From contig CAYZUL010000003.1 of the NCBI GenBank assembly GCA_964481895.1, positions 9,294 through 73,293 on the forward strand: a stretch of DNA of 64,000 nucleotides, given 5' to 3'. Within the stretch, counting starts at the first letter, position 1. The number at the start of each line of letters is the position of its first letter. The stretch comes from an uncultured Nitrospirota bacterium (GTDB lineage Bacteria; Nitrospirota; Nitrospiria; JACRHA01). Below are positions 50,068 through 64,000 of the stretch, piece after piece. The notes under the pieces were generated by a model. The model did not search any database and was not told the DNA's origin. It saw only the letters and a list, made by a program, of their open reading frames with translations. A program made the position numbers and the translations under genes.

Positions 50068-52223
50068 TGGGGCAGGTCTTCCTTCTTCTTGGGATACACA
50101 ATCACCAGCCTGTGGGCAATTTTGAGCACGTATTCCGGGAGGCACACGATAGATGCTACAGGCCTTTTCTTGATCTCCTCATGGAACATAGGACTATTCG
50201 TGTGGCCATGCATTACAGCGGCCCTTTGTTCGATTGGATGGAAGGGAATGAACCTTCATTTATCGGCCGGCTAAAGGAGATGGCGAAAAAAAGACAGGTG
50301 GAACTCCTCACGGGCGGCTACTACGAGCCTATCCTTGCCTCAATACCGGCAAGGGACGGAATAGGGCAGATCGGGATGATGACGCAATATTTGCGAAACA
50401 GGCTTGGCGCTGATCCTAAGGGGCTCTGGCTTGCTGAACGAGTATGGGAGCCGTCTCTTCCCGGCCTGCTTAATTCTTGTGGTATCGGTTATTCCCTTCT
50501 TGATGATACACATTTTCAGTATACCGGGGTCAAGCCTGAGACCTTGCGCGGCTATTACCTGACCGAGCATGAAGGGAAGGTCCTGGCGATATTTCCCATA
50601 AGCAAAAGGCTCCGTTACCTAATCCCCTTCCGTCAGCCGGAGGAGACGATAGAATATCTTGATCAACTGAGAAAGGAGGGTCCGGTTGCTATTACCTATG
50701 CAGACGATGGTGAGAAGTTCGGCCTCTGGCCCGGTACATATCGCTGGGTCTATGACATGGGATGGATAGAGAGATTCTTTAACCTTCTGGAGAAAAACAG
50801 TGACTGGATCACTACCATTACCCCCGGCGAATACCTGGCCAAGGCTCCGTCTTCCGGCCGTATTTATCTGCCGACGGCCTCATATGAAGAGATGATGGAA
50901 TGGGCCCTGCCTACAGAGACTATCCTGGAAAGGGAGGCGTTAGTTGCGAAGCTTGAGGCCTCAGGCCTGAAGGGCGCGACGGAGGGTTTTCTGCGCGGCG
51001 GACTCTGGAACCATTTTCTCGTAAAGTATCCTGAGATCAATCTTATGCATAAGAAGGCCCTATATATAAGCGAGAAACTTTCCCTCAAGGAGAAGAGACC
51101 CGGCATTTCCATGACCAAATGGTTTGCGGAGGCGAGGCGGGAGCTTTACAAGGCCCAGGGAAACGATGTCTACTGGCATGGGCTGTTCGGCGGGTACTAT
51201 CTAAATTATCTTCGGCATGCCGTGCACGAGCATCTCATAAAGGCTGAGAGGCTTATCGACGCTAAGACTGATCCCCGAATCCGCCTGACAGAGACAGACC
51301 TGGACCGGGATGGCTACCAGGAATTTATAGCAGAAACAGACTGTTTAAACCTCTATCTAAAACCGGATGATGGCGCCACAGTTATTGAGATCGATTACAG
51401 AACAAAGCCACTCTGCCTTACACATGTCCCGATGCGGAGGCCTGAGGCATACCATAAAAAGATCAAGATAGATCAGCCGGCTGCCTCTTCCCCTTCTCCG
51501 GGCAGTATCCCCTCTATCCATGAGCTCTCATCTTTAAAACCATCTGTCGCTGGCAAGAGACTGATCTACGATCGCTTGCCGAGGTGGTCATTCCGGGATC
51601 ACATCCTGACGAACGATACAACCCTGGACCAATTTGAGGCATCGAATTACGCGGAGATAGGTGGTTTTTCTCATAAACCTTATCAAAAAATAGAAGCCGG
51701 GACCAACACAGATGGGATCGTACTTGCCTTCCAACATACAGACATGATACACGACCTCTCCCTGACGGCCAAAAAGGTTTATACTGTTTCGGCTTCAGAT
51801 GCCGCATTTACCGTTCAGTATGCCTTTAGCCATGGGCCAGAGCAGTCAGAGTCGCCGGATCAGAATGGCCATGGCCTCCTCTGGGGGGTGGAGCTTAATC
51901 TGACCCTGCTGGCCGGCTCTGACCCAAGGCGTTATTACAGCTTTCCCGGAAGGGGTGTAGAAGAAAAACTCCTAAATAGCAGGGGGGTCCTGGAGGATCT
52001 TACTGAGGCGCATCTGATAGATGAATGGCAGGGGGTTGATATATGCCTTGAATTTAAGCCGGCCGCGCGCCTCTGGAGATTCCCGATAGAAACGATATCG
52101 CAATCAGAAGAGGGATTAGAGTCGAACTATCAAGGTTCCTGCCTTGTCATCCTCTGGCCTTTGACCCTTCCACTAAAGGGGAAGCAGGAGCGTCTCATCA
52201 CCATGAAGATCTCCGGACTTTAG
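50067..52223 (+). CDS. glycoside hydrolase family 57 protein (second paralog, amylopullulanase/4-alpha-glucanotransferase-like with DUF1925/1926-like C-terminus)
   Basis: LLLGIHNHQPVGNF GH57 signature. ATG 50067 overlaps the upstream stop (TGATG). The ORF is open from GTG 50055. Confidence 0.8.
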   Translation: MGQVFLLLGIHNHQPVGNFEHVFREAHDRCYRPFLDLLMEHRTIRVAMHYSGPLFDWMEGNEPSFIGRLKEMAKKRQVELLTGGYYEPILASIPARDGIGQIGMMTQYLRNRLGADPKGLWLAERVWEPSLPGLLNSCGIGYSLLDDTHFQYTGVKPETLRGYYLTEHEGKVLAIFPISKRLRYLIPFRQPEETIEYLDQLRKEGPVAITYADDGEKFGLWPGTYRWVYDMGWIERFFNLLEKNSDWITTITPGEYLAKAPSSGRIYLPTASYEEMMEWALPTETILEREALVAKLEASGLKGATEGFLRGGLWNHFLVKYPEINLMHKKALYISEKLSLKEKRPGISMTKWFAEARRELYKAQGNDVYWHGLFGGYYLNYLRHAVHEHLIKAERLIDAKTDPRIRLTETDLDRDGYQEFIAETDCLNLYLKPDDGATVIEIDYRTKPLCLTHVPMRRPEAYHKKIKIDQPAASSPSPGSIPSIHELSSLKPSVAGKRLIYDRLPRWSFRDHILTNDTTLDQFEASNYAEIGGFSHKPYQKIEAGTNTDGIVLAFQHTDMIHDLSLTAKKVYTVSASDAAFTVQYAFSHGPEQSESPDQNGHGLLWGVELNLTLLAGSDPRRYYSFPGRGVEEKLLNSRGVLEDLTEAHLIDEWQGVDICLEFKPAARLWRFPIETISQSEEGLESNYQGSCLVILWPLTLPLKGKQERLITMKISGL

Positions 52224-52356
52224 ACCCTACTATCTCCAGTTCTTAGCTTTCAAATTCACTGTTAGAAATCTAATGTCTAGAATGGGAATACTGGTCTGGT
52301 TAATGGAACACCTCGTATCTGCCGATATAAATCTAAACGTACAAAATGGGGACTTG

Positions 52357-52385
52357 TTGATCTGATTATTGAAATCCCTTATAAT
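52357..52385 (+). promoter_or_regulatory. sigma70-like promoter (-35 TTGATC 52357-52362, 17-nt spacer, -10 TATAAT 52380-52385)
   Basis: Good hexamers with optimal spacing 49 nt upstream of the galT-like ATG. RBS GGGAGG. Confidence 0.5.
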
Positions 52386-52433
52386 CATTGAACTAAGACA
52401 AACTTACAGTAAAAAAGGGAGGTTATATCTGAT

Positions 52434-53450
52434 ATGCCTGAACTAAGAAAAGACCCCATCAGTCAACGATGGGTAATTATTGCTACTGAACGGAGCAAGC
52501 GTGCAAACCATTATAAATCTTCTGGTCCTCCTCCGCAGGTTGAGCCGAAGTTCTGCCCCTTCTGTTCTGGTAATGAGGATAAGACCCCGCCGGAGATACT
52601 GGCCTACAGGCCTGATGGATCGAGACCGAATACACCGGGATGGCATATAAGGGTTGTGGCGAACAAGTTTCCGGCACTCAGGATCGAGGGTGGATTAAAC
52701 CGGGAAGGGGAGGGGATCTACGACAAGATGAACGGGATAGGGGCCCATGAGGTGATCATTGAAACCCCGGACCATAAACAGACCATGGCAACCATGACAG
52801 ACAAGTATGTCGAGGATATCCTCTGGAGCTTCCGGGACAGGATCCTCGACCTTAAAAAAGACAGACGATTCCGGTTTATCCTCCTCTTTAAAAACCATGG
52901 TGAGGCAGCCGGCGCCAGTGTTGATCATTCCCACTCTCAGCTTATTGCGCTCCCGATTGTCCCAAGGAATGTGATCGATGAGCTTCGGGGGGCCAAGGAT
53001 TACTACGACCAGAAGGAGCGGTGTATCTTCTGTGATATTATCCGGCAGGAGACAGCCTCAAAGGTCCGTCTGGTCAGTGAAAATGATCATTATGTATGCA
53101 TTACCCCCTACGCAGCGCGTTTCCCCTTCGAGACATGGATCTTACCCAAAAAGCATGGCCCTTTTTTTGAGGATTCCCAAAAGTATGAATTCGAGGCCCT
53201 TGCCAGGATACTCTGTGATACCCTAAGACGCCTGGACAAGGCCCTCAATAATCCCCCTTACAATTTTATCATCCATAGTGCACCTGTCAATCAGGCATAT
53301 CATGATGAGGATTACTACCACTGGCACCTGCAGATCATGCCGCGCCTGACCAATATAGCTGGTTTTGAGTGGGGCACAGGTTTTTATATAAATCCTACAC
53401 CTCCTGAGGAGGCAGCGAAATTCCTCCGCGAGCTGGAGCTCAGGGATTAG
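52434..53450 (+). CDS. galT: galactose-1-phosphate uridylyltransferase-like HIT-family nucleotidyltransferase
   Basis: 338 aa. Zn-binding CPFCSGNE and a HxHxQ-type active site (SVDHSHSQL). Placement in a glycogen cluster suggests sugar-1-phosphate nucleotidyl transfer related to glucan metabolism. Confidence 0.75.
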   Translation: MPELRKDPISQRWVIIATERSKRANHYKSSGPPPQVEPKFCPFCSGNEDKTPPEILAYRPDGSRPNTPGWHIRVVANKFPALRIEGGLNREGEGIYDKMNGIGAHEVIIETPDHKQTMATMTDKYVEDILWSFRDRILDLKKDRRFRFILLFKNHGEAAGASVDHSHSQLIALPIVPRNVIDELRGAKDYYDQKERCIFCDIIRQETASKVRLVSENDHYVCITPYAARFPFETWILPKKHGPFFEDSQKYEFEALARILCDTLRRLDKALNNPPYNFIIHSAPVNQAYHDEDYYHWHLQIMPRLTNIAGFEWGTGFYINPTPPEEAAKFLRELELRD

Positions 53451-54922
53451 TGCGAATACTCTACGCCGCATCTGAGGTTACACCCTTTGCCAAGACGGGC
53501 GGCCTGGCTGATGTGGCCGGGGCCCTTCCCGCAGCGCTGGCAGGACTGGGACACGATGTCAAGGTGGTCATGCCGGGGTATAATGGTGTTAAGGATAAAC
53601 CTGGAAGATATACTCCGAGGGGTAATATAAAGGTCAGTCTTGCCGGCGGGGTTTATCCCTTTGATGTAGAGTCGGGCCGTCTGCCTGAAACCGGTGTCGA
53701 GATCCTGTTCCTGTCCAATAGCCGCCTCTTTGACCGGCCAGGACTGTATCAGGAGAAGGGGAAGGATTACCCTGATAACCTGGAGCGGTTTGCGGCCTTC
53801 AGCCGTGCCCTACTTGAGGTCCCGGGATTGTTGGACTGGTATCCGGATGTGATCCATTGCAACGACTGGCAGACTGCATTGATCCCTGCCTACATAAAGG
53901 CCCATTTCCCGGACGACCCCAGGTTTACCGGGACAGGCACCCTCTTTACTGTCCATAATCTCGGCTACCAGGGGCTTTTCCCCGCTTCGGAATATCCAAA
54001 ATTATCCCTCCCCCCTGAATTCTTTACGCCGGAGACCCTTGAATTTTACGGAAAGGTAAATCTCCTCAAGGCAGGTCTTGTGTTTGCCGATATCCTGACT
54101 ACGGTAAGTCCTACATATAGCCATGAGATCCAGACACCCCAGTTTGGGTGCGGCCTGGAGGGGATCCTCCACGAAAGGAGCAATGATCTTTTCGGTATAA
54201 TAAACGGGGTCGATTATCAGCGATGGGATCCGGCCCATGATCCCCACCTGGGACAGCCTTATGATGCCCGGCAGTTGCAGGGCAAACGTCTTTGCAGGAG
54301 GCAACTCCAGAAGGCATCTAAACTGCCAATAAAAAAGGTACCCATCATCGGGATGATCACAAGGCTTACCGAGCAGAAGGGGGTAGACCTGGTAATAGAG
54401 GTGCTCGATGAATTGATGATGCTTGACATCCAGGTAGTCATCCTGGGCGAAGGAGACCCGGATATACACCAGAAACTCAATGAGGCGATGGGCCGTTATC
54501 CCAAAAAGCTTTCAGTCCATATCAACTTTGATGAGTCTCTGGCCCATCTGATCGAGGCCGGATCGGATATTTTTTTAATGCCTTCCCGCTATGAACCATG
54601 CGGCTTAAACCAGTTATACAGTTTAAGGTATGGGACAGTCCCTATTGTCCGGAAGACAGGCGGGCTGGCAGACACCATTATAGATGCCACGCCATCCAAC
54701 ATCGCTGCCGGCAAGGCAAATGGTTTCCTTTTCGAGCATGCGAGTTCCCATGAACTTCTTACAACTGTGAGGCTGGCCATTAACTTGTTTCATGAAACGG
54801 ATCTCTGGCTCCAATTGATCCGAAATGGAATGATGGCAGATTTCTCATGGGGCCGCTCCGCCAGGGAATATGAGAGGCTCTATCGTCTTGCCATTGATAA
54901 GGCGACAGATACTGGAAAGTAA
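53450..54922 (+). CDS. glgA: glycogen synthase (ADP-glucose type)
   Basis: 490 aa. MRILYAASEVTPFAKTGGLADVAGALP N-terminus. GT-B fold. GTG start overlapping the galT-like stop (TAGTG). Confidence 0.9.
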   Translation: MRILYAASEVTPFAKTGGLADVAGALPAALAGLGHDVKVVMPGYNGVKDKPGRYTPRGNIKVSLAGGVYPFDVESGRLPETGVEILFLSNSRLFDRPGLYQEKGKDYPDNLERFAAFSRALLEVPGLLDWYPDVIHCNDWQTALIPAYIKAHFPDDPRFTGTGTLFTVHNLGYQGLFPASEYPKLSLPPEFFTPETLEFYGKVNLLKAGLVFADILTTVSPTYSHEIQTPQFGCGLEGILHERSNDLFGIINGVDYQRWDPAHDPHLGQPYDARQLQGKRLCRRQLQKASKLPIKKVPIIGMITRLTEQKGVDLVIEVLDELMMLDIQVVILGEGDPDIHQKLNEAMGRYPKKLSVHINFDESLAHLIEAGSDIFLMPSRYEPCGLNQLYSLRYGTVPIVRKTGGLADTIIDATPSNIAAGKANGFLFEHASSHELLTTVRLAINLFHETDLWLQLIRNGMMADFSWGRSAREYERLYRLAIDKATDTGK

Positions 54923-55035: not shown

Positions 55036-58000
55036 TTAAGAAATAAAATCAATGGCAACTAGCCTAAGCAATTCAGGCTTGTATGGCGGAATCTCTTTCT
55101 TTTCAAAGGTAAACTTTCCTTCAAGGAATTCTGATAATTCCCTTAAAAGGCCCTTCCAATTTTTATGATTATTCTTATAATCTCTCCAGATAGCCCTTAA
55201 TCCTTGAAGCCTCTTTTTTGTAAGGCTTATGGTTAAAAGCCTTTCCTTTACCTCTTCCCACTTATCTTCAAGCGCTTTTTCTTCAGGAAAGTCCAATATA
55301 TGTTCATCTATTTGCAGATCTATCTCTCTAATGAGATTTGATACAAACTTCTTGCTCCTGTCTTGGCTTAATTCAGAAAATGTGGAATCCACCCCTTCCC
55401 TCTGTTCTGCCTCTTTATAAGTTTCCTCTATTTCTATAATCACCTCTCTATTTACCTCATAGACCCTTTCAAAGAAATCAGGTATCACCCTTTTCTCTTC
55501 AGGAGGACAGGAGATAAAATCTAAGATCCTTGTCTTGTTTGTAATCTTCTCCCCTGTTGAAAGATCATAAAGATACCAGAAATGGAAGTCCTCACCATAT
55601 TTATAATAGAAAAAGATCCCTTTTATATCTCTCTTGAGACCGCTATGAATCCCAAGGGGGATAGATTCAAGCCCTTCAAGCCCCTTTGTCCTAAGATAGT
55701 TTTTCAAAGGCTGATAGAATCTCTCTCCGCCGCCAAAGACATCTCTTTCAAGTTCATCAAATATCATCTTATCCCGCTTCCTAATCCTTCTTATAACGCC
55801 AAATACTTTTGGATTAACCTCTTCTCCAAGAACTGTCTGATCAAGCCCGACTGCATTGTCGATATTCCGTATCTTTTTCTGGAGGATCTCCATAAGGCGC
55901 AAAAGGTCTTCTAGCTCCTCCTCCGGGAAGAAATTGTATACATAGATCTCATCAAAGGTAGAACCTATTCTATCTATTCTGCCTGCCCTCTGGATCATCC
56001 TGGTAGGGTTCCAGTGGAGGTCATAATTGATAAGATACTGGGCCTTTTGAAGGTTCATCCCCTCAGAGAGGACATCCGTGCTCATTAAGATATTAATCTC
56101 CCCCTTCATAAAGTCATCAACAATCCTCGTGCGTCTGGTGGCAGAGGCTACCCTGCCTGAAATCTTCTCTATTCTAATCTTTGAAAATAGGCTGTCTTCG
56201 GATATATTTTTATGGATATAATCATATCCATAACAATATATAATCAAGGGTATCTGCATAATATGTGAATACAACAACCTGTCCTTTTCTGCCCAATTCC
56301 AGGAGTCTCTTCTTTAGCTCCTTAAGCTTTGCATCTGCCTCCGCATCAATCGTCTCGACCATCCTGCCCATTTCATTGAATAGGGCTATATCCTTATCAA
56401 TTTCACCAAAGAGTTCTTCTTTTTTATAATCTTCAAGATTGATATCTTCCAGTTCATCAACAAATTCTTCAGCAGTCTCCTCATCCAGGTTGGAGATATA
56501 TTTATAAAAGGTTTTTTTAGTGAGGAGCTTACCCTTCATTAGATATCCCTTAAATTTCTCCAGAAAGGCCAGATGATTGGAGACGCTCTTTCTAAATGCA
56601 TCAACACTGCTTTCAAGCCTCTTTAGCAGAATGGTCCTGAAGATCCCTTCCAGGGCCACCATCCTGCCCAATGCCATCTCCTCATCTTTGGAAAGCCTCT
56701 CTTTCTTTCTATATTCGAGTACCCGATAATAGGCCATGGTCAATCTTTCACTTATAATCCTGGATATATCTCTATAGAGCCCCTGATAGGCATTATCGAG
56801 CTTGTAATTGATATTCTCCAATATCCTTTTGGGAAAGACGATCTTTTTCCCATAAATCTCTGCGTCAGGATAGTTCTCTCTGACATAATCCCTTGTCCTC
56901 CTGATTGATATCTCGTTCATGAGATCATTTAGGAGTGTAGGATCGCCCTCTTTATCAATATCCTTAAAAAACTTAAAGAGGCTCGGTATCCCCTCCTTGA
57001 GAAAGATATTCTGATCCATAAAGGTGAGCAGCATTATCTGCCAGTAAAGATCCCACAGGGTATTATTAATGGGTGTGGCAGTAAGAAATAAGATATAAGG
57101 CCTCCTCCCATTCCCTCCTATATGATTGATAATGGTAAATAGATTTTCCCAACGATTAGAAAGGGGATTTCTAAAGTTGTGGCTCTCATCTACCACTATC
57201 AGGGAAACCTCATCAAGATTACCTCCTACTGAATGTCTTGCTTTATCCAGAAAATCAAGAGATGCAAGCTCTTCCTGGGATAGGATGCTCTCAGACAGGA
57301 TAAGGTCTTTAACCTCATTTCTCCACATCTCCCTTAATTGGGCAGGGCAGATAATAAGAAACCTCTTTCTTTTATAAAAACCAAACTCCTCTATGATCTT
57401 TTTGGCTATCCATGTCTTACCCAGGCCTACTGCATCTGCTATCATGCAGGCCTTATATTTTTTAAGACGGGTAAAAACCCTCCTTACGGCATCTTCCTGA
57501 AACTCTGCAAGGTTAACCAGTGAGGAAGGTCTGGCATCTTTCTCCTTTTCTTCATCATCAATTTTTAAGTCGTCTTTTTGTAATTCATAGAGGGACTTTA
57601 TATAAACCTCAAAAGGGCTATACTCCTTAGTCCCGAAACGGGAGGAATCAAGGAGTTCAATCAGTCTTGCCTTGAAATCAACCGCCTCATTCCAGAATTT
57701 GTCAAACCAGTTTGTCCGCACATATTGCGCCTCTGACTCAAGAGAAACAGAGTTTAACTCCGTGTTATGCGTAAGACCTGATGGTGTGAAGTTTGATGAG
57801 CCTACTACCACAAGACTATCGAATATATATGCTTTACCATGGAAAAATTCCTTATCGTAGAGCCTGACCTCCACATTATCTTTATTGAGAAACCCTATTA
57901 TCTCCTTGGCCAGGTTATTTTTATCTTTAGAGAGATCAAACCCTTCAACCTCCTCCTTAATCATTTTCAAAAGCAGATCCCCAAGCGTAGTCTCATTTTT

Positions 58001-58195
58001 TATCTCTGGTGCTTTCCCCAGGAGAAGCCGGAATCTTTTGACCCCCTGGATATTCTCTTTTATTAAGGCATAGGCCTGGATATTAAAAAAGGCGGTAGCA
58101 ATATCAAATTGGGTATTTGGTATCTCCTTCAGGACATCATTAAGGAAGGTAGATAACTTTACATCGCTGTTGTCTATGATTTTCTTTGGGATCAT
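55036..58195 (-). pseudogene. PLD-family nuclease (HKD) + SNF2-family helicase fusion gene, disrupted by a frameshift from a 22-bp insertion
   Basis: The N-terminal ~180 aa carry the HKD motif FHGKAYIFDSLVVVGSSNFT. SNF2 motifs follow (ADAVGLGKT, LIVVDESHNFRN). The helicase C-terminal domain (ILMSTDVLSEGMNLQ...QRAGRIDRIGS) continues in another frame, as ORFs 56222-58195 and 55036-56277. Removing the 22 nt between the 8-bp direct repeats ATATAATC (56216-56223 and 56238-56245) restores ...TLDYIHKNISED.... Confidence 0.75.
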
Positions 58196-58340
58196 ATATC
58201 TCCAATCGCCCTATGCTTGACAACCCGATAGCATTGTATCATACTATAAATGAGCGATAAGACCGTTGTGGGTTCCTTTGGCGTTCCCTTCCGTAGGTTG
58301 GCCAAGCCAGAGGGCACGCACCCACAGGGCACGCTCATTT

Positions 58341-58973
58341 TTATGGTAAATAAACGTCATCGTATTTGATCTTACTCTTAAAAACGTCAAACCATTCCTT
58401 ATCATCTTTTTCGTATTTCCGGAAGATCCCCCAGGAAAATAAATCAACTGCCTGAAGAGGCAGGTCTTCATGGGAAAGATGGTGATCTATATCGAGTGGG
58501 ATTCTTGGTTCTATTCTGCCGCTTAACTGACGGATCAGGTAGTCATCGAACTCTCTTATTTCTTTCTTACTCTTGCTCCTGTCTATTACAAGTCCGACTC
58601 TTACCGAGGCATTTGTAAAAGGAATGACATCAAGAACTTTTCTTGCGATAAAGTTGTAAACCCTGTCCTTTTTCTGTGACAAATAATCATATACCCGTCT
58701 TTTGTTGAGCGTGAGGGCGTAAAGCTCGAAGGGGACAGCTTCAACATGCCGGTAAAAATATCTCTTTATTTCTATGGATTGCTTTGACCCTTTCAGTTCA
58801 GTCTGTTGTTTCGGGAATTTACTTTGCAGGGTTCTTTTTACAGCCTTAGCTATTTTCTTCCTGTTTTCCATGTCATGTACCAGCATTACAGTAACCGTAA
58901 AATACTTCGACGGTTTCTTTGCGAAGAAGTCGAACCCCAGGTCGCCGCTTTCATCAAGGTACAAATATAGCAT
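58341..58973 (-). CDS. DUF3800 family protein
   Basis: 210 aa. N-terminal MLYLYLDESGDLGF, the hallmark DUF3800 motif. Confidence 0.6.
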   Translation of the reverse strand: MLYLYLDESGDLGFDFFAKKPSKYFTVTVMLVHDMENRKKIAKAVKRTLQSKFPKQQTELKGSKQSIEIKRYFYRHVEAVPFELYALTLNKRRVYDYLSQKKDRVYNFIARKVLDVIPFTNASVRVGLVIDRSKSKKEIREFDDYLIRQLSGRIEPRIPLDIDHHLSHEDLPLQAVDLFSWGIFRKYEKDDKEWFDVFKSKIKYDDVYLP

Positions 58974-59039
58974 TTATTTCCTATGTTTTATTGGAATACT
59001 CCTTGTAGATATCTCTTAAAAATTCATGACCCCTTGAGC

Positions 59040-61946
59040 CTAAGCAAATTCTCTTTTCCTTAGTTCAACATCTTCATCAGCTCGCTTTTGTTCGTATGTA
59101 ATTCTCCTGTCTAAATAATCTTCATATTTTCTAACAAAGGATTGTATAGTCTTGTTCTTGTCTTTTTCCCAGTCCTGGACTTCTTGCCGTTTGGCTCTAT
59201 AGGCTTCCACAAAACCATACTCACCAATTACGACACCGGTCTGTGACAAGATAATAAACATTTCTTTCATATATTTATCACTGTGATATCTTTTTATAAA
59301 TTCTTTGCACACACCGTACAAAAAAGGCTCTCCCTTATATGCCCTCAAAACTGAAATAACGATCTTTGCATTCTTATCCCCGCCCTTCATAATCAGATTT
59401 ATCATTTCACTCTCAAGTGATTTATCGAAAGCCGGAAAGATTGCCTGCAGGAAATGGCTCGCTTCCCATTGGAACAACCAGTCTTTTTCTGCAAACCAAC
59501 CTACTATTTCTCGGACTACTATATTGGCGTGCTTCTGAAGCGGCTTATTTATTATGTGCAAACTGAACGGTATTGCATCATATCTTTCCCCTTCTTGTTT
59601 ATGTAGACGCTTAGAGACCCGTTTTCTAAAAAACTGTATCAGCCTTTTAGGATACTTCTCAGCAACTGGAGATAGTATTTCCTCGGCGTGATAGTCGATA
59701 TCCGGCGCAAAGATCAAGCTGTCAAGTATAGCCACAAGATCTTTCTCAGTGAGGGCATCGAGAAGTGACGGTTTTCTGAACCATACACCTCTGATCCAAT
59801 GGTAGTTCCTTAATTCAGCCAGTTTCTTGATAGCCCCAACGAAGACCTTCTTAAGCTTCGTGGACTTCGGATATTTCGGATAATTTCGGACAATCGCGCT
59901 TACGATACGGGAAAGAGCATCTGCGTCATTATTCTCACTTGCCCTGTTGTATATACCTTTCAGAAGAGGGGTATCGATTTCCTCCACATATTCAAGCAAA
60001 TCTGCACATATAGATAGTCTCTTATTCTCGCCAATCCACTTTTTCAATATGTCTTTAGCGTTTATGGATGACTCGCCTTTCCATAAACCCGCAAGCATGT
60101 GAATTAAGCAAGGATCAAGCTCTTTTTCATTTTGATAGAGCAACATTAAGGCAAACTCTGTTTTTTGTTTTCCAATTTCGAACAGGAACATATTAAAATA
60201 TTGGAATTCACCCCAACTTACGGGATAATTTTTGATGATAGCTAAAATCCTGCTTTGCCAATCCTCATAAGAGCTCTTATTTATGCTATCAATCAACACT
60301 TGAAGTTTCTCTTTGCGTAACTTCTCTGTTTCTTTAACGTCTAATCCAGCGGCAACCCCATAATCGTAACCGACAAGAATCCTGTATGTTTCGTATTCTT
60401 TATTCGAAGAAATGTTTGACCGAAGGGAATAGGCTTTATCATTCAAGCCCTTTCTATCAAAAAACTGTGACTGTTCTTCAATGTCTTTAATAATCTCATT
60501 TTCCGCTGTGGGCAAAATCTCACTATAAAATTCAATTAGCATATTGGTATTCTCAACGACCATTTGCAGGAGGTTATCTCCGTAGTTCCCTTGGTGTGGT
60601 GTCTGCGACGCATCTTGTAATACTTGTAATACCCTGATCCGCTGGGTTATCTCTTTCATGTCGTGATATAACCGTTTTAGCAGGTTTATAGTACGAGTTC
60701 TGATACTTTTCAACTCATCGTTCACAGGAAGCGGCCCATAATGAAATGTGACAGTCTTGTAGTCAGACATCGAAGTGCCTTCAAAAGAAGGCTTTAGCAA
60801 CTGGCTGGCGATTTCCGTAACAGCCTCGAAATATTCGATAATTTTTGTGTTATTCCACTTCTCCATTTTATCCAAGACAAAAAGCTGTGGGGAATAACCA
60901 ATTTTCTGAATCACATGCAAGTTATAACTCGCAAGCTTACTCAAACCCTCTATAGCTTTCTTCTTTACAGTGGGATTTGAATCGCCTGAGAGCCGAATAA
61001 GCAATTCAAATATTTTTTCGGTATGGAAGTATTTCAATTCACTTAAGATATCCAAACAGATTTTTGCTATGTCAGCATAGTGCTTTCCTTCAAATTCTCC
61101 AAGTGCTGTTTTTATGGGTTCTGGAACGCTCCCTTTTGCATTTTGCAGAGCGCTGTCTACGATGGTGATGATATCGAATTTCTTTGGTGTCTTGTCTCCG
61201 AATTCTTTAACGAATTGATGCAACAGGGAGAGCTGTTCGTACAAGTCATTATTAGACGCTGATTTCATGATCCCTTCTAAGAATCGAACGTCAAATACTG
61301 TCTTGCCTTGTTTAAGTTTCTCGAACTGCTTATAAATGAACTCAAAGCTATAGCTCGCCTGCCTGATGTGATTTTGCATCACATCTGAGAACTGTTTTTT
61401 CAAGGATTCGAACGCAGGCCGGTCAAATACCGATAACTCCTTTTGGGGTTTATATATAATGTCATGTGCCATTTCGGACCATGCATGATAAAGGACGGTC
61501 GTAAGTTGAATCTCGCATCTCAAGCCTGTGAATTTTACGTATTCAGTTAGGTCCAGCCTGTCCTTATTCAGGTGAACAACAAGATGGTGAGCGTTATAGT
61601 CATCAGGGGAGAATTTAGGAACATTCTTGATGACCGAAAACTCTTTGTAGACGTATTCAATAAATCGCCCTATATCACTATCAAGATAAAAAATAACTCT
61701 GCAACCGGCAAGATCGTCCAATTCTGCAAAGGGTATATTTTGCAGTTTTGAGTTGTCTCTAATTTTTCGCTCCAATGATTCTGGGTCTTTTTCGCGTGCG
61801 GATACCACCTGGTAGTGAAATCCGTTATTCTTCAATAAGGTTTCTAATATGAATTTCACCGCGCTTGAAAAATCCTTATAAGTGAGCTGGATCCTTTTAT
61901 ACTGCTCCAGAAGTGATGTAATCTTTTCCTTGCTATCCACCCTCAC
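59040..61946 (-). CDS. RelA/SpoT-like (RSH/toxSAS-type) nucleotidyltransferase domain fused to ~770-aa HEAT/ARM-like alpha-helical repeat region
   Basis: 968 aa. Residues ~40-170 carry REKDPESLERKI (R.K...S..K), DDLAGCRVIFYLD and CEIQLTTVLYHAWSEMAHDIIYK (ExQxRT..xHxWxExxHxxxYK), the (p)ppGpp-synthetase-fold signature. The remainder is helical repeats (e.g. NPTVKKKAIEGLSKLA). Low GC. 4-nt overlap with the upstream methyltransferase gene. Confidence 0.7.
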   Translation of the reverse strand: MRVDSKEKITSLLEQYKRIQLTYKDFSSAVKFILETLLKNNGFHYQVVSAREKDPESLERKIRDNSKLQNIPFAELDDLAGCRVIFYLDSDIGRFIEYVYKEFSVIKNVPKFSPDDYNAHHLVVHLNKDRLDLTEYVKFTGLRCEIQLTTVLYHAWSEMAHDIIYKPQKELSVFDRPAFESLKKQFSDVMQNHIRQASYSFEFIYKQFEKLKQGKTVFDVRFLEGIMKSASNNDLYEQLSLLHQFVKEFGDKTPKKFDIITIVDSALQNAKGSVPEPIKTALGEFEGKHYADIAKICLDILSELKYFHTEKIFELLIRLSGDSNPTVKKKAIEGLSKLASYNLHVIQKIGYSPQLFVLDKMEKWNNTKIIEYFEAVTEIASQLLKPSFEGTSMSDYKTVTFHYGPLPVNDELKSIRTRTINLLKRLYHDMKEITQRIRVLQVLQDASQTPHQGNYGDNLLQMVVENTNMLIEFYSEILPTAENEIIKDIEEQSQFFDRKGLNDKAYSLRSNISSNKEYETYRILVGYDYGVAAGLDVKETEKLRKEKLQVLIDSINKSSYEDWQSRILAIIKNYPVSWGEFQYFNMFLFEIGKQKTEFALMLLYQNEKELDPCLIHMLAGLWKGESSINAKDILKKWIGENKRLSICADLLEYVEEIDTPLLKGIYNRASENNDADALSRIVSAIVRNYPKYPKSTKLKKVFVGAIKKLAELRNYHWIRGVWFRKPSLLDALTEKDLVAILDSLIFAPDIDYHAEEILSPVAEKYPKRLIQFFRKRVSKRLHKQEGERYDAIPFSLHIINKPLQKHANIVVREIVGWFAEKDWLFQWEASHFLQAIFPAFDKSLESEMINLIMKGGDKNAKIVISVLRAYKGEPFLYGVCKEFIKRYHSDKYMKEMFIILSQTGVVIGEYGFVEAYRAKRQEVQDWEKDKNKTIQSFVRKYEDYLDRRITYEQKRADEDVELRKREFA

Positions 61947-64000
61947 ACGCTCCTCGCCTTCTCAAGCCTGTTCTTGACCAGCTCGCATACCGCCCAATAG
62001 ACCTCGTTTCTTTCTTCTTGTGTCAGACCAAGGATGTCGAAGACAATATCATGGAGGGCCTTGCGGTCAGGAAGGGGATTGGGTGTTTGCTCGCGGATGG
62101 GACGGGTCGGGTTGATGCGAAGTTCTTCGAAGACCGAATTAATCCTTCGTTTACCAAGTTCTGAATCTATGAGTTCCTCTATCTTGCTCCTCTGCTTCTT
62201 TTGCAACAGAGACGGTGCAACTATAATCTCAGCCCGCCTCAAATCCTCAACAAGCAATCTTACAGCCCCTCCACCTAATCCCTTTCTTCCAAGAACCTCA
62301 ACAAAAAACGCTGTCAATGTACTATTTAGGAGACCACACAAGATTGTAGATATTGAATCATCTTTTGGGACTATGCCATGAAAGTTATGAGTAAAATAGA
62401 GATTGTGAGTATTGTAATGACATAAATGCCTATCACCTCTAATATCTACCCATAACAATTTTGCATGTTTTAACTCTCTTCTTATTCCTTCGATCAATAT
62501 CAATAGGGTATCAGTATCATTTTCCCCAAAAATAATTTTTTCGATTTCTCTTGGGCTTTTGAGAACGGGCAGCGTTTCATATTTTGCAGAGTAACCTTCA
62601 CTTTTCGGAATCAGGATTTCGCTATTGAGTCCTTTTCGGCTCCATGCAACTGTGATTACCTTGCCAATGTGAGGTTGAATGGCTGTCAATTTATCATTGC
62701 CCTTTTCAAGTATTGTATAGAATATATCCGGCGCCCTCAGATATTTTCCTCCCCATTTGTTCCCCTCATATTTACCGGTGAGGAATTTGTCTTTCAATAA
62801 TGACTGAGATTGCTTCGTCGCTCTGCTCCTCGCAATGACATCCTTTTCTTCTGACTTCTGAGTTTCTTCGGGATACTCCCATCCGTCATCCAGAAGCATC
62901 TCCTGTTTTACCGGATAGACCCTGTAGGTATCTGTTTTCCGAATGGCATCTGCCATTTCTATCTCAAGAAGGTTTTTTACGTTTACAACTTCCTCAAAGG
63001 GCCTTTTGAACATAACAAATCGGGCTGTCTCTTCTAATGCGGGCCATGTACCCTGCACACGACCGACATCTGGCGGCCCGAAGATGGCAATAATCGTATT
63101 CACGTCCGCATGTTCAAAGCTCCTCTTTGCCTCGTTATCATAGACCGCCTTGATTGGGCAGTACTTGAGGAGGAACTCCTGAAGATCCGCTCCATACCCC
63201 ACATCGAGCCATGAATTAGAGGTGATAAAGCAGAATGTGCCCTTGTCATTAAGAAGCGAGAGGCCGTGGAAATAGAAATAGATGTAATAATCGCTTTTTT
63301 TATCAAGCTTCTTTATGAAGGGGTAATGAACCTGTATCGAGCTAAGAAGTTTTTCCTTGTATCCCCTCTTGTCCTCAAGGGTCACCTCTGCCTTGAGCTT
63401 ATTTGGAGGGGCGATCTTCTCCTGCCTTACATATGGCGGATTACCGATGACAATATCAAAGCCCCCCTTATCGCCAAAGATCTCTGCAAAGTCAATGTCC
63501 CAGACAAAGGGTTTTTGTCCTGGCAACTGGATTTTCCTTTTCGTCTCCAGCAAATGTTCGATCTCCTGCCCTTTGGCCTTTATCTGTTCTTCAAAGAGAG
63601 AGGGCGAACGACCGTTCGCCCCTACATCAAACATCTCTATCTGGATTTTTCTTTTTTCGCCTTTTAATGCCTGGATCTCCTTTTGGAGGCTTACAATCTT
63701 CTCATCCAGTATCTCGCCAAAGATCCTTAGCTCTTCCTGTAAAAGGCCCTCAGCGCTCTTAAATTTGCCTGTCGGGTCATTGTTGTAGTATTTCTCCTTC
63801 TCCGCCTTCAGGGATGTAAGCCTTTTCTTGATGGAAGGAGAAAGCTTACTGTCCCTGACATGGAGGTTTACTCCTCCTACCTCTTGTACTAATGAATCTC
63901 CTATCCTGAGCCTTAAGTTGAGGTTTGGAAGAAGTGGGAAGAGCTTTCTCTGCTCATATGGGATATCCTCTTCGATGATTAACTGAAGCCATAGCCTAAG
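61943..64000 (-). CDS. N6-adenine DNA methyltransferase, Eco57I/TaqII/PglX-like gamma class (5' end lies beyond the window)
   Basis: The reading frame stays open on the minus strand from 63634 to the window edge (...RIGDSLV...). DIVIGNPPYV motif IV (D/N-PPY) and a C-terminal TRD-like region (LLNSTLTAFFVEVLGRKGLGGGAVRL...AP) are typical of type IIG/IIL RM and BREX PglX methyltransferases. Confidence 0.75.
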   Translation of the reverse strand, partial: LRLWLQLIIEEDIPYEQRKLFPLLPNLNLRLRIGDSLVQEVGGVNLHVRDSKLSPSIKKRLTSLKAEKEKYYNNDPTGKFKSAEGLLQEELRIFGEILDEKIVSLQKEIQALKGEKRKIQIEMFDVGANGRSPSLFEEQIKAKGQEIEHLLETKRKIQLPGQKPFVWDIDFAEIFGDKGGFDIVIGNPPYVRQEKIAPPNKLKAEVTLEDKRGYKEKLLSSIQVHYPFIKKLDKKSDYYIYFYFHGLSLLNDKGTFCFITSNSWLDVGYGADLQEFLLKYCPIKAVYDNEAKRSFEHADVNTIIAIFGPPDVGRVQGTWPALEETARFVMFKRPFEEVVNVKNLLEIEMADAIRKTDTYRVYPVKQEMLLDDGWEYPEETQKSEEKDVIARSRATKQSQSLLKDKFLTGKYEGNKWGGKYLRAPDIFYTILEKGNDKLTAIQPHIGKVITVAWSRKGLNSEILIPKSEGYSAKYETLPVLKSPREIEKIIFGENDTDTLLILIEGIRRELKHAKLLWVDIRGDRHLCHYNTHNLYFTHNFHGIVPKDDSISTILCGLLNSTLTAFFVEVLGRKGLGGGAVRLLVEDLRRAEIIVAPSLLQKKQRSKIEELIDSELGKRRINSVFEELRINPTRPIREQTPNPLPDRKALHDIVFDILGLTQEERNEVYWAVCELVKNRLEKARSV

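What the first reader, a model, noticed from the sequence alone, without database searches (positions are those of the whole stretch)
56212..56245. Helicase gene disrupted by a 22-bp insertion flanked by 8-bp direct repeats
The PLD-SNF2 helicase reading frame breaks inside the helicase C-terminal domain. On the coding strand the sequence reads GATTATAT-attgttatggatat-GATTATAT-ccat. Deleting one repeat plus the 14-nt spacer (22 nt) restores a continuous ...ADTLDYIHKNISEDSLFSKIR... motif. This looks like a duplication or transposon-excision footprint that inactivated a potentially toxic or restrictive gene, or an assembly artefact.
Basis: seen in the sequence. Interest (0 to 1): 0.6.

Follow-up and report, generated by a model that had tools for sequence, protein, structure and literature searches.

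The report
Restriction-like helicase broken by hairpin insertion
A 22-base insertion, most of it a back-to-front copy of the neighbouring coding sequence as a replication template-switch error would make, has recently frameshifted the nuclease-helicase gene of a restriction-modification-like defence system whose methyltransferase is still an open full-length frame; this is a tidy but ordinary gene inactivation.

Summary
On the minus strand the PLD(HKD)-SNF2 reading frame breaks at 56222-56224 (TGA). Removing 22 nt restores a 1045-aa ORF that aligns without a gap to more than 100 intact ~1047-aa homologues. The three orthologue DNAs inspected lack the 22 nt. The repeat is 9 nt (TGATTATAT), not 8, and alone is within chance. 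The decisive feature was missed: the "spacer" is the reverse complement (13/14; 17/18 with the flanking ATAT) of the coding sequence immediately downstream. This makes the only 18-bp hairpin in the 64-kb window. The structure is X-GATT-rc(R)-GATT-R, a locally templated inverted insertion (template switch or snap-back), not a transposon footprint or a tandem duplication. An independent k=31 Logan assembly of SRR4343435 is identical across the junction, so the insert is in the reads. The gene is the effector of a conserved two-gene module with an MmeI/Eco57I-like N6-adenine methyltransferase, whose gene here is an open 1194-aa frame with its motifs. The reconstructed protein shows no further decay, so the event is recent. 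A sister Nitrospirota genome has lost most of the same gene through a different lesion. Verdict: real, mechanistically neat, biologically ordinary. A minor intact allele cannot be excluded without read mapping.

The parts
56220..56241 (-). The 22 extra nucleotides (ATATATTGTTATGGATATGATT on the coding strand). This is one of 10 equivalent placements allowed by the 9-nt repeat. It consists of an inverted copy of the next 18 coding nucleotides plus a re-copied GATT.
   Evidence: Deleting it restores a 1045-aa ORF. It is absent from orthologue DNA. Four-point enumeration.
56224..56241 (-). New hairpin arm ATATATTGTTATGGATAT. It is the reverse complement of the arm at 56202-56219 with one mismatch (G for T).
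   Evidence: I1, 94% complementary, 4-nt loop. Searches show the adjacent arm is the only other match in the window.
56202..56219 (-). Original coding sequence ATATCCATAAAAATATAT (codons for ..Y-I-H-K-N-I-S..). It served as the template or source of the inverted copy and forms the right arm of the hairpin.
56238..56246 (-). Direct repeat copy 1 (TGATTATAT).
   Evidence: D2.
56216..56224 (-). Direct repeat copy 2 (TGATTATAT). It spans the last base of the new arm, the GATT loop and the first 4 nt of the original arm.
   Evidence: D2.
56222..56224 (-). Premature TGA stop of the N-terminal frame. It spans the last base of the new arm and the first two loop bases.
56222..58195 (-). N-terminal fragment ORF of 657 aa. 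It holds the single-HKD PLD nuclease domain, SNF2 RecA1 lobe (GLGKT, DESH) and motif IV, and ends 8 residues after motif IV with a short out-of-frame tail, LLWI.
   Evidence: Pfam PLDc_2 (6.6e-12), SNF2-rel_dom, ResIII. Alignment.
55036..56277 (-). C-terminal fragment ORF in the +1 frame. The part homologous to the helicase starts at about 56215 (DYIHKN...). It carries Helicase_C motifs V and VI and the C-terminal domain.
   Evidence: Pfam Helicase_C 2.7e-20. Alignment.
58247..58341 (+). DUF3800-V RNA motif (Rfam RF02964) between the DUF3800 gene and the helicase start.
   Evidence: 71.4 bits against gathering score 37.4. Same position next to DUF3800 in L002, L003 and L043.
58341..58973 (-). 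DUF3800 protein (PADLOC candidate PDC-M04A family in orthologous loci). Cargo embedded in the module.
59040..61946 (-). 968-aa RelA/SpoT-domain protein. Variable cargo between the methyltransferase and the helicase.
   Evidence: Pfam RelA_SpoT 1.8e-11. PADLOC PDC-S33.
61943..64000 (-). C-terminal 684 residues of the MmeI/Eco57I-like N6-adenine methyltransferase, running off the window. The full protein is an open 1194-aa frame.
   Evidence: P0121 is 100% identical, 1194 aa, with DPACGSG and NPPY motifs.

Best explanation
A real, evolutionarily recent loss-of-function mutation in the nuclease-helicase (restriction-like effector) gene of a two-gene methyltransferase + HKD-SNF2 defence module.

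The lesion is a 22-nt locally templated inverted insertion. Ancestral ...CTT-GATT-[ATATCCATAAAAATATAT]-CCG... became ...CTT-GATT-[ATATATTgTTATGGATAT]-GATT-[ATATCCATAAAAATATAT]-CCG....

The most economical origin is one short-range template switch during DNA synthesis. Described for the + strand:
1. The nascent strand had copied ...ATATATTTTTATGGATAT-AATC(A).
2. It folded back on itself (or moved to the strand of the same sense) across a 4-nt loop.
3. It copied 14-18 nt of that sequence as a reverse complement.
4. It re-aligned on the original template through the self-complementary ATAT, 4 nt behind where it left.
5. It therefore copied AATC (GATT on the coding strand) a second time.

The 9-nt direct repeat is a by-product: T + re-copied GATT + palindromic ATAT.

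Consequences: a +1 frameshift and a TGA a few codons later. This separates the PLD nuclease + RecA1 lobe + motif IV from helicase motifs V and VI, which carry the arginine fingers, so ATP-driven translocation should be lost. The methyltransferase gene is still an open, full-length frame, which is the tolerated way for such a system to decay.

Shown: the insertion, its inverted-copy nature, its presence in reads, the absence of further decay, and the module architecture.
Inferred: the polymerase-level steps, the loss of activity, the defence function and the activity of the methyltransferase.
For: - Frame break and exact restoration by a 22-nt deletion.
- Gapless alignment of the junction with 10 aligned intact homologues, drawn from more than 100 intact ~1047-aa homologues at up to 79-81% identity. 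Codon-level alignment with orthologue DNA from L002, L003 and L005, all lacking the 22 nt.
- Inverted repeat 17/18 with a 4-nt loop. It is unique in 64 kb and absent from 200 shuffles. P is about 8e-7. DNA hairpin -11.1 kcal/mol, z = -5.9.
- The only other match of the spacer in the window is the adjacent arm on the opposite strand.
- Every single switch-and-return solution reproduces the sequence with 1 mismatch and uses the adjacent 13-18 nt as source.
- The template-switch model creates hairpins in one step (PMC5453318; PMC8794818).
- The Logan contig of SRR4343435 is identical over 6228 nt. Logan keeps only 31-mers seen at least twice (PMC12424806), and the 22-nt insert is shorter than k.
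- Recent event: the reconstructed protein has only 2 conservative private changes at 308 columns invariant in 75 homologues. dN/dS is 0.22 against the sister genome over the shared 231 codons.
- Module: an MmeI/Eco57I-like methyltransferase lies upstream on the same strand in about 36 of 54 loci. It is a tight operon in archaeal L020. This genome's methyltransferase is an open 1194-aa frame with its motifs.
- Sister genome L057 (94% nt synteny) keeps only the last 231 codons.
Against: - No near-identical intact allele exists in the searched collections, so the ancestral sequence is inferred from orthologues at 77-81% protein identity and from the reading frame.
- In the four-point model every solution has point 4 upstream of point 1. 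Loytynoja and Goldman did not observe that class in human-chimp data. The simple fork model therefore needs a 4-9 nt backward re-alignment.
- One of the two switches has only 1 nt of microhomology.
- The arms differ at one position, so either the copying was inaccurate or a later substitution occurred.
- Read depth and allele frequency are unknown.
- The complete lack of other damage fits a very recent pseudogene equally well as a gene still under selection.
Confidence: 0.78

Rival explanations
1. Library or sequencing artefact. Inverted (fold-back) chimeric molecules, such as those produced by multiple-displacement amplification or end repair of damaged DNA, were assembled into the consensus. 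The organism would then carry an intact 1045-aa gene.
For: - The structure (inverted copy of adjacent sequence across a short loop) is what snap-back synthesis in vitro also produces (own knowledge of MDA chimeras, not tested here).
- Both assemblies probably derive from the same run.
- No second sample carries either allele.
- The gene is otherwise pristine.
Against: - Two different assemblers give the identical junction.
- Logan discards k-mers seen once, so each of the roughly 50 novel 31-mers occurred at least twice.
- Random chimeras are not expected to recur at one site and out-compete the true path in two assemblies.
- The one mismatch between the arms is not expected from fresh in-vitro copying.
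Confidence: 0.07
2. The gene is still conditionally functional. Either the 22 nt are removed at appreciable frequency by slippage between the 9-nt repeats, helped by the hairpin (a reversible ON/OFF switch of restriction). Or the ribosome bypasses them, taking off at the first GAU-UAU and landing at the second, as in phage T4 gene 60. Or it shifts +1 before the TGA.
For: - Exact 9-nt repeats bracket the insert, so a precise deletion restores the wild type.
- Matched potential take-off and landing codons (GAT TAT), with a hairpin starting at the take-off codon and a stop inside the gap.
- No other degenerative change.
- dN/dS 0.22.
Against: - It is a single occurrence. No homologue among the 10 aligned proteins or the three orthologue DNAs inspected has an insert at this point, and no other locus breaks frame here.
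- The stop is several codons after the putative take-off codon rather than adjacent.
- There is no known slippery +1 motif.
- A 9-nt repeat 22 nt apart gives low slippage rates (own knowledge), far from classical phase variation by repeat tracts or invertases.
- No Rfam recoding element reaches threshold.
Confidence: 0.05
3. Footprint of a transposable element. An 8-9-bp target-site duplication was left with 14 nt of element ends after excision.
For: Direct repeats of 8-9 nt flank a short spacer. The locus is a cargo-swapping hotspot.
Against: - The spacer is a 13/14 reverse complement of the flanking gene sequence and matches nothing else in the window.
- The 9-nt repeat is explained as re-copied GATT plus palindromic ATAT and is not beyond chance by itself.
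- Bacterial IS excision does not normally leave such footprints (own knowledge).
- A hairpin-opening (P-nucleotide) origin would give a palindromic centre, whereas the loop GATT is a direct copy.
Confidence: 0.03
4. Naturally split gene. The two ORFs are expressed as separate subunits (PLD + RecA1 and RecA2 + C-terminal domain) that reassemble into an active enzyme.
For: Both ORFs are long and open. An AAGGA sequence precedes the TTG TTG start candidates of the downstream ORF (sequence). The two ORFs overlap by 56 nt.
Against: - The break lies inside the RecA2 lobe, 8 residues after motif IV, not at a domain boundary.
- No locus other than the window's own Logan contig breaks frame at this position. 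The few other broken copies are broken at other positions, by other lesions or by masked N runs.
- The split is created by an obviously secondary insertion.
Confidence: 0.03

Closest known systems
Short-range template-switch mutations (Ripley's quasipalindrome model; four-point model of Loytynoja and Goldman 2017, PMC5453318; hairpin creation, Monttinen and Loytynoja 2022, PMC8794818; E. coli quasipalindrome hotspots, PMC7202029)
   Same: The new sequence is the reverse complement of sequence a few nucleotides away. A perfect or near-perfect hairpin appears in one step. The source fragment length (13-18 nt) is in the range accepted as high-confidence. The result is a frameshift.
   Different: There was no pre-existing quasipalindrome to 'correct', so the arm is wholly new. 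The return point lies 4-9 nt upstream of the departure point (order 4-1-3-2 or 4-3-1-2). That class was reported as theoretically possible but unobserved in the human-chimp data. One arm position differs.
Decay of restriction-modification systems to orphan methyltransferases (inactivated R gene, retained M gene)
   Same: The effector gene is disrupted by a frameshift. The cognate N6-adenine methyltransferase gene is a full-length open frame with its catalytic motifs. A sister lineage lost the effector by a different lesion.
   Different: Restriction activity of this HKD-SNF2 protein and methylation by its partner have not been shown for this family.
Hma / DUF499-centred BREX-related (BR) type-2 systems (PMC12839542) and class 1 DISARM (DrmD, DrmMI, DrmC)
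   Same: An N-terminal HKD nuclease is fused to a Swi2/Snf2 helicase and paired with a large N6-adenine methyltransferase. Other defence genes are embedded in the locus. PADLOC hits are HmaA 111 bits and DrmD 161 bits.
   Different: There is no DUF499 ATPase and no DUF3780 in compact loci, and no DrmA or DrmB. NCBIfam DrmD scores 197 bits against a cut-off of 610. The best PADLOC model is a separate one, PDLC01075 'HKD+Snf2', at 203 bits.
Translational bypass of phage T4 gene 60 (recalled from the literature, not tested)
   Same: A short non-coding gap lies inside an ORF. It is bounded by identical codons and contains a stop, with a stem-loop starting at the take-off codon.
   Different: The stop is not adjacent to the take-off codon. 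No nascent-peptide signal is known. The element is not conserved in any relative. The landing codon is buried in the hairpin.

Membership tests
Template-switch mutation (four-point model) | The inserted or changed segment is the reverse complement of nearby sequence on the same molecule. | tested here: met
   17/18 (13/14 of the novel bases) complementary to the adjacent 18 nt. Unique in the window.
Template-switch mutation (four-point model) | The copied fragment is long enough not to be a chance match. The authors used 14 nt or more for high confidence. | tested here: met
   F2 is 13-18 nt depending on placement. Chance P is about 8e-7. Threshold from PMC5453318.
Template-switch mutation (four-point model) | The switch-point order belongs to the empirically observed types, in which point 4 does not precede point 1. 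| tested here: not met
   In all 10 solutions F3 restarts 4-9 nt upstream of the end of F1. The paper reports this class as unobserved in human-chimp data.
Classic quasipalindrome correction (Ripley) | A pre-existing imperfect inverted repeat is made more perfect. | tested here: not met
   The reconstructed ancestor and the orthologues contain only one arm. The second arm is entirely new.
Transposon excision footprint | A target-site duplication flanks residual element-derived (foreign) sequence. | tested here: not met
   The spacer is derived from the flanking gene, not foreign. The 9-nt repeat is not beyond chance.
Tandem duplication | Two adjacent units of like sequence in direct orientation. 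| tested here: not met
   The 22-nt units share the 9-nt repeat and only 4 of the remaining 13 positions (sequence).
Phase-variable contingency locus | A simple-sequence tract or an invertase-flanked segment, with mixed alleles in the population. | not testable with these tools
   No repeat tract or recombinase site at the junction. Allele mixture needs read mapping. Neither allele was found elsewhere.
SNF2-family SF2 helicase with N-terminal PLD/HKD nuclease | PLDc_2 domain with an HxK motif, SNF2/ResIII N-lobe with Walker A and DExH, and a Helicase_C lobe with motifs IV-VI. | tested here: met
   Pfam hits on the two fragments. HGKAYIFD, GLGKT, DESH, STDVLSEGMNLQ and QRAGRIDRIG are all present in the reconstructed protein.
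DISARM DrmD | Score above the NCBIfam equivalog cut-off, and presence of DrmA and DrmB (DUF1998) in the locus. | tested here: not met
   197 bits against a cut-off of 610. Compact loci contain only the methyltransferase and the helicase.
Hma / BREX-related type-2 system | A DUF499 AAA+ ATPase and a standalone DUF3780 gene alongside the N6-MTase and the HKD-Snf2 helicase (PMC12839542). | tested here: not met
   No such genes in L020, L023, L003 or L005 or in the window segment. Definitions.
T4 gene 60-type translational bypass | Matched take-off and landing codons, a stop codon immediately 3' of the take-off codon, a take-off stem-loop and a nascent-peptide signal. | tested here: inconclusive
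   Matched GAT-TAT codons and a stem-loop are present. The stop is several codons downstream. The peptide signal is not testable. There is no conservation.

The most novel reading that the evidence does not exclude
The insert is not a dead end but a reversible or bypassable interruption. The hairpin bracketed by exact 9-nt repeats could be precisely deleted at a useful frequency. Alternatively the ribosome could hop it between the two GAU-UAU codons. Either way the cell would keep a silenced but recoverable restriction effector next to a constitutively active methyltransferase. This would be a template-switch-born ON/OFF switch for a defence gene.
Probability: 0.05. Interest if true: 0.7.

Novelty: new member of a known kind. 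Interest (0 to 1): 0.25.

Why it matters
The result turns a vague "insertion with direct repeats" into a fully resolved mutational event. It is a clean prokaryotic example of a hairpin created de novo inside a coding gene by a local inverted templated insertion. Its return point lies behind the departure point, a geometry reported as unobserved in primate data.

It also documents how this little-studied methyltransferase + HKD-SNF2 module decays. The effector is lost, by different lesions in two sister Nitrospirota lineages, while in this genome the methyltransferase gene remains open and full-length.

For annotation, the two ORFs should be flagged as one pseudogene. None of this changes current understanding of defence systems or of mutagenesis. 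It is a well-explained ordinary event.

Tried and rejected
- **Search for the same strain.** Exact-pattern scans allowing either allele (CTTGATTATAT-N{0,22}-CCATAAAAATATATCCGAAG) in genome contigs and metagenome contigs found 0 hits. There is no independent sample and no intact near-identical allele.
- **Literature on the run.** A search for SRR4343435 gave nothing.
- **Contig look-up for the methyltransferase.** The organism is therefore known only through the 94% syntenic Nitrospirota MAG, L057.
- **Tandem duplication.** Rejected because the units are unlike.
- **Transposon footprint.** Rejected because the spacer is local sequence.
- **Hairpin-end opening (P-nucleotide) model.** Rejected because it predicts a palindromic centre, whereas the loop GATT is a direct copy.
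- **Two-step model** (14-nt perfect palindrome first, then an 8-nt duplication in its centre). Considered and judged less parsimonious than one switch-and-return.
- **Known RNA or recoding element at the junction.** No Rfam match reaches threshold.
- **Frame breaks in other loci.** L056 and L042 turned out to be masked N runs, not mutations.
- **First dN/dS attempt.** It was misaligned by a 24-nt indel and was redone on a codon alignment.
- **PDB search.** It gave only remote SF2/SNF2 relatives. No structure prediction was run because it would not bear on the finding.
Full report
**1. The observation**

On the minus (coding) strand, window 56245-56212 reads GATTATAT-ATTGTTATGGATAT-GATTATAT-CCAT, exactly as reported.
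- ORF 56222..58195(-) is 657 aa and carries PLDc_2, SNF2-rel_dom and ResIII. It ends ...FTYYADTLDYILLWI-TGA.
- The Helicase_C domain continues in the +1 frame in ORF 55036..56277(-) as ...DYIHKNISEDSLFSKIR....
- Removing 22 nt gives one 1045-aa ORF with no other stop.

The exact direct repeat is 9 nt (TGATTATAT). A 9-nt direct repeat at 9-30 nt spacing is not remarkable by itself. Dinucleotide shuffles of the gene give 0.49 per gene, and the gene contains three.

**2. Are the 22 nt extra?**

Yes.
- A search of 5.8 billion proteins returned more than 100 full-length homologues of 1044-1061 aa. The best reach 79-81% identity.
- In the alignment of ten of them, the N-terminal and C-terminal fragments abut without a gap at FTYYADTLDYI|[Y/H][Q/K/E]...

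**3. What the 22 nt are**

The region contains an 18-nt inverted repeat, 17/18 complementary, with a 4-nt loop. Its arms are 56202-56219 and 56224-56241.
- It is the only hairpin of this class in the whole 64-kb window. Not one of 200 dinucleotide shuffles of the gene gave even a 14-nt stem.
- As single-stranded DNA it folds at -11.1 kcal/mol, z = -5.9.
- The 14-nt spacer matches nothing else in the window except the adjacent arm on the opposite strand.
- The chance of 13/14 in that register is about 8e-7.

The structure is therefore X-GATT-rc(R)'-GATT-R, with R = ATATCCATAAAAATATAT, the original codons for Y-I-H-K-N-I-S. The inserted DNA is an inverted copy of the next 18 coding nucleotides plus a second copy of GATT.

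I enumerated every single switch-and-return solution under the four-point template-switch model.
- Fragment 1 ends after GATT, or up to 4 nt later.
- Fragment 2 is the complement of R read backwards (13-18 nt).
- Fragment 3 restarts at GATT or one base earlier.
- All solutions need exactly one mismatch.

The 9-nt direct repeat then falls out as T + re-copied GATT + the self-complementary ATAT that begins both arms. It is a by-product, not a target-site duplication.

**4. Mechanism (inferred)**

The pattern is what short-range template switching produces. The model and its ability to create hairpins in one step are described in PMC5453318 and PMC8794818. The bacterial quasipalindrome literature is represented by PMC7202029.

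Read on the + strand:
1. The nascent strand copies ...ATATATTTTTATGGATAT-AATC(A).
2. It snaps back over the 4-nt loop.
3. It copies itself (or the like-sense strand) for 14-18 nt.
4. It re-anneals through ATAT just before AATC and copies AATC again.

Two features are atypical.
- There was no pre-existing quasipalindrome.
- The return point lies 4-9 nt behind the departure point. Loytynoja and Goldman found that ordering to be absent from human-chimp events.

With an intrastrand snap-back, the nascent strand is already peeled off the template. A short backward re-alignment is then not implausible, but this is inference.

The single G/T difference between the arms is either a copying error or a later substitution. 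Orthologues have K, E or Q at the affected codon of the original arm. The change is therefore more likely in the new arm.

**5. Alternatives rejected on structure**

- Tandem duplication: the units are unlike.
- Transposon footprint: the spacer is local, not foreign.
- Opening of a hairpin-capped break: this would give a palindromic centre, but the loop is a direct GATT copy.

**6. Is it an artefact?**

The 657-aa product is recorded from NCBI and from Logan.
- The Logan contig SRR4343435_46897 is identical to the window over 6228 nt, including the junction.
- Logan assembles each run with k = 31 and discards k-mers seen only once (PMC12424806).
- The insert is shorter than k, so single 31-mers span it together with both flanks, and each was seen at least twice.

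An assembler-made artefact is thus excluded. Recurrent chimeric reads are unlikely but cannot be excluded without mapping. A minor intact allele cannot be excluded either, because graph simplification would hide it. No other sample carries either allele.

**7. What the gene is**

The protein combines:
- an N-terminal single-HKD PLD nuclease domain;
- an SNF2-type helicase (GLGKT, DESH, motif IV VFTYY, motif V STDVLSEGMNLQ, motif VI QRAGRIDRIG);
- a roughly 290-residue C-terminal region.

The best PADLOC model is PDLC01075 'HKD+Snf2' at 203 bits, followed by DrmD at 161 bits and HmaA at 111 bits. NCBIfam DISARM_DrmD scores 197 bits, far below its cut-off of 610. Only remote relatives have solved structures.

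Context:
- In 54 genomic loci from bacteria and archaea, an MmeI/Eco57I-like N6-adenine methyltransferase of about 1200-1250 aa lies upstream on the same strand wherever enough flank is available, about 36 loci.
- In archaeal L020 the two genes overlap by 4 nt and sit between housekeeping genes.
- In bacterial loci the gap holds variable cargo: Avs2, a reverse transcriptase, toxin-antitoxin pairs and DUF3800. In the window it holds a RelA/SpoT-domain protein and DUF3800.

The core is therefore a two-gene R-M-like module. It resembles the Hma / BREX-related type-2 systems, whose effector is also an HKD-Snf2 fusion (PMC12839542). It lacks their defining DUF499 ATPase and DUF3780.

In this genome the methyltransferase is a 1194-aa open frame with its DPACGSG and NPPY motifs.

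**8. Consequence and age**

The break falls 8 residues after motif IV, inside the RecA2 lobe. The N-terminal fragment lacks motifs V and VI, and the C-terminal fragment lacks everything else. Loss of ATP-dependent activity is expected from established helicase biochemistry, but this is inference.

The evidence points to a recent event.
- The reconstructed protein differs from 75 full-length homologues at only two of 308 otherwise invariant columns (I438V, D598E). That is within the range of intact members.
- The nearest genome, L057 (an uncultured Nitrospirota MAG), is 94% identical and syntenic over glgA, galT and the gene's 3' end. It retains only the last 231 codons of the helicase.
- Over that stretch dN/dS is 0.22 (13 synonymous and 12 non-synonymous changes), against 0.14 for glgA and 0.05 for galT.

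The gene was thus present and constrained in the common ancestor and was inactivated independently, and recently, in both lineages. Other genomes also carry damaged copies:
- an A8-run frameshift in Ca. Brocadia pituitae (L052);
- two frameshifts in E-plasma (L047);
- in-frame deletions in L039 and L054;
- a break at another hairpin-like insert in L043.

This fits the common decay route of restriction systems, in which the effector is lost while the methyltransferase is kept.

**9. Residual novel reading**

Exact repeats bracket the insert, and the gene is otherwise pristine. A reversible precise deletion, or a ribosomal hop between the two GAU-UAU codons, cannot be excluded. Nothing positive supports either:
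- the insert is a single occurrence;
- there is no conservation;
- the stop is not adjacent to the putative take-off codon;
- no recoding element was detected.

I give this reading about 5%.

**10. Verdict**

Its origin was misjudged: the insert is a locally templated inverted insertion, not a transposon footprint or an assembly error. It is a new instance of a known kind of mutation in a member of a little-studied but recognisable class of defence module. Interest is low to moderate.

Noticed in passing
window 58247-58341 (+); L002 7239-7335, L003 7345-7440, L043 3473-3568: An Rfam DUF3800-V RNA motif (RF02964, 56-73 bits against gathering score 37.4) lies immediately beyond the 3' end of the DUF3800 gene in every locus checked (after an interposed 161-aa ORF in L003). 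It is called on the strand opposite to the gene, just upstream of the PLD-SNF2 helicase start.
   Followed up: partly
window 55036-64000 and loci L002, L003, L005, L020: The MmeI/Eco57I-like methyltransferase and the HKD-SNF2 helicase form a conserved two-gene module found in both bacteria and archaea. In bacterial copies other defence genes (Avs2, reverse transcriptase, RelA/SpoT-domain protein, DUF3800/PDC-M04A, toxin-antitoxin pairs) are embedded between the two genes. It lacks the DUF499 ATPase of Hma / BREX-related systems.
   Followed up: partly
L057 3975-4145, 4668-4757, 5496-5550, and internal repeats 5367-5496/5727-5856 and 814-897/3161-3240: The sister Nitrospirota MAG carries three partial copies of the methyltransferase 3' end and several other short repeats where the helicase 5' part should be. 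This suggests repeated recombination and cargo exchange at this hotspot. Only the last 231 codons of the helicase survive, with a 24-nt in-frame insertion.
   Followed up: partly
L043 4270-4300: Another orthologue (Nitrospirae NC_groundwater_1761 MAG) changes frame at a hairpin-like insert, CCCCCCTTT-AGA-AAAGGGGGGG, in the linker after the PLD domain. It also has a second, truncated copy of the PLD domain upstream of its DUF3800 gene.
   Followed up: no
L052 11890-11900 (Candidatus Brocadia pituitae AP021856): The orthologue in this complete genome is frameshifted within an A8 homopolymer, about 20 codons upstream of the position broken in the window. This may be a genuine contingency tract or a long-read homopolymer error.
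   Followed up: no
window 59040-61946 (-): A 968-aa protein has an N-terminal RelA/SpoT nucleotidyltransferase domain (weak PADLOC PDC-S33 hit) and a long uncharacterised C-terminal region. It is embedded between the methyltransferase and DUF3800.
   Followed up: no
window 50055-54922 (+): A glycogen-metabolism cluster (722-aa ORF, 338-aa ORF and 490-aa ORF, taken to be a GH57-like enzyme, galactose-1-phosphate uridylyltransferase-like protein and glycogen synthase) converges on the helicase 3' end. It is 94-96% identical in L057. These gene names come from reading the translations and were not tested against a family library.
   Followed up: partly
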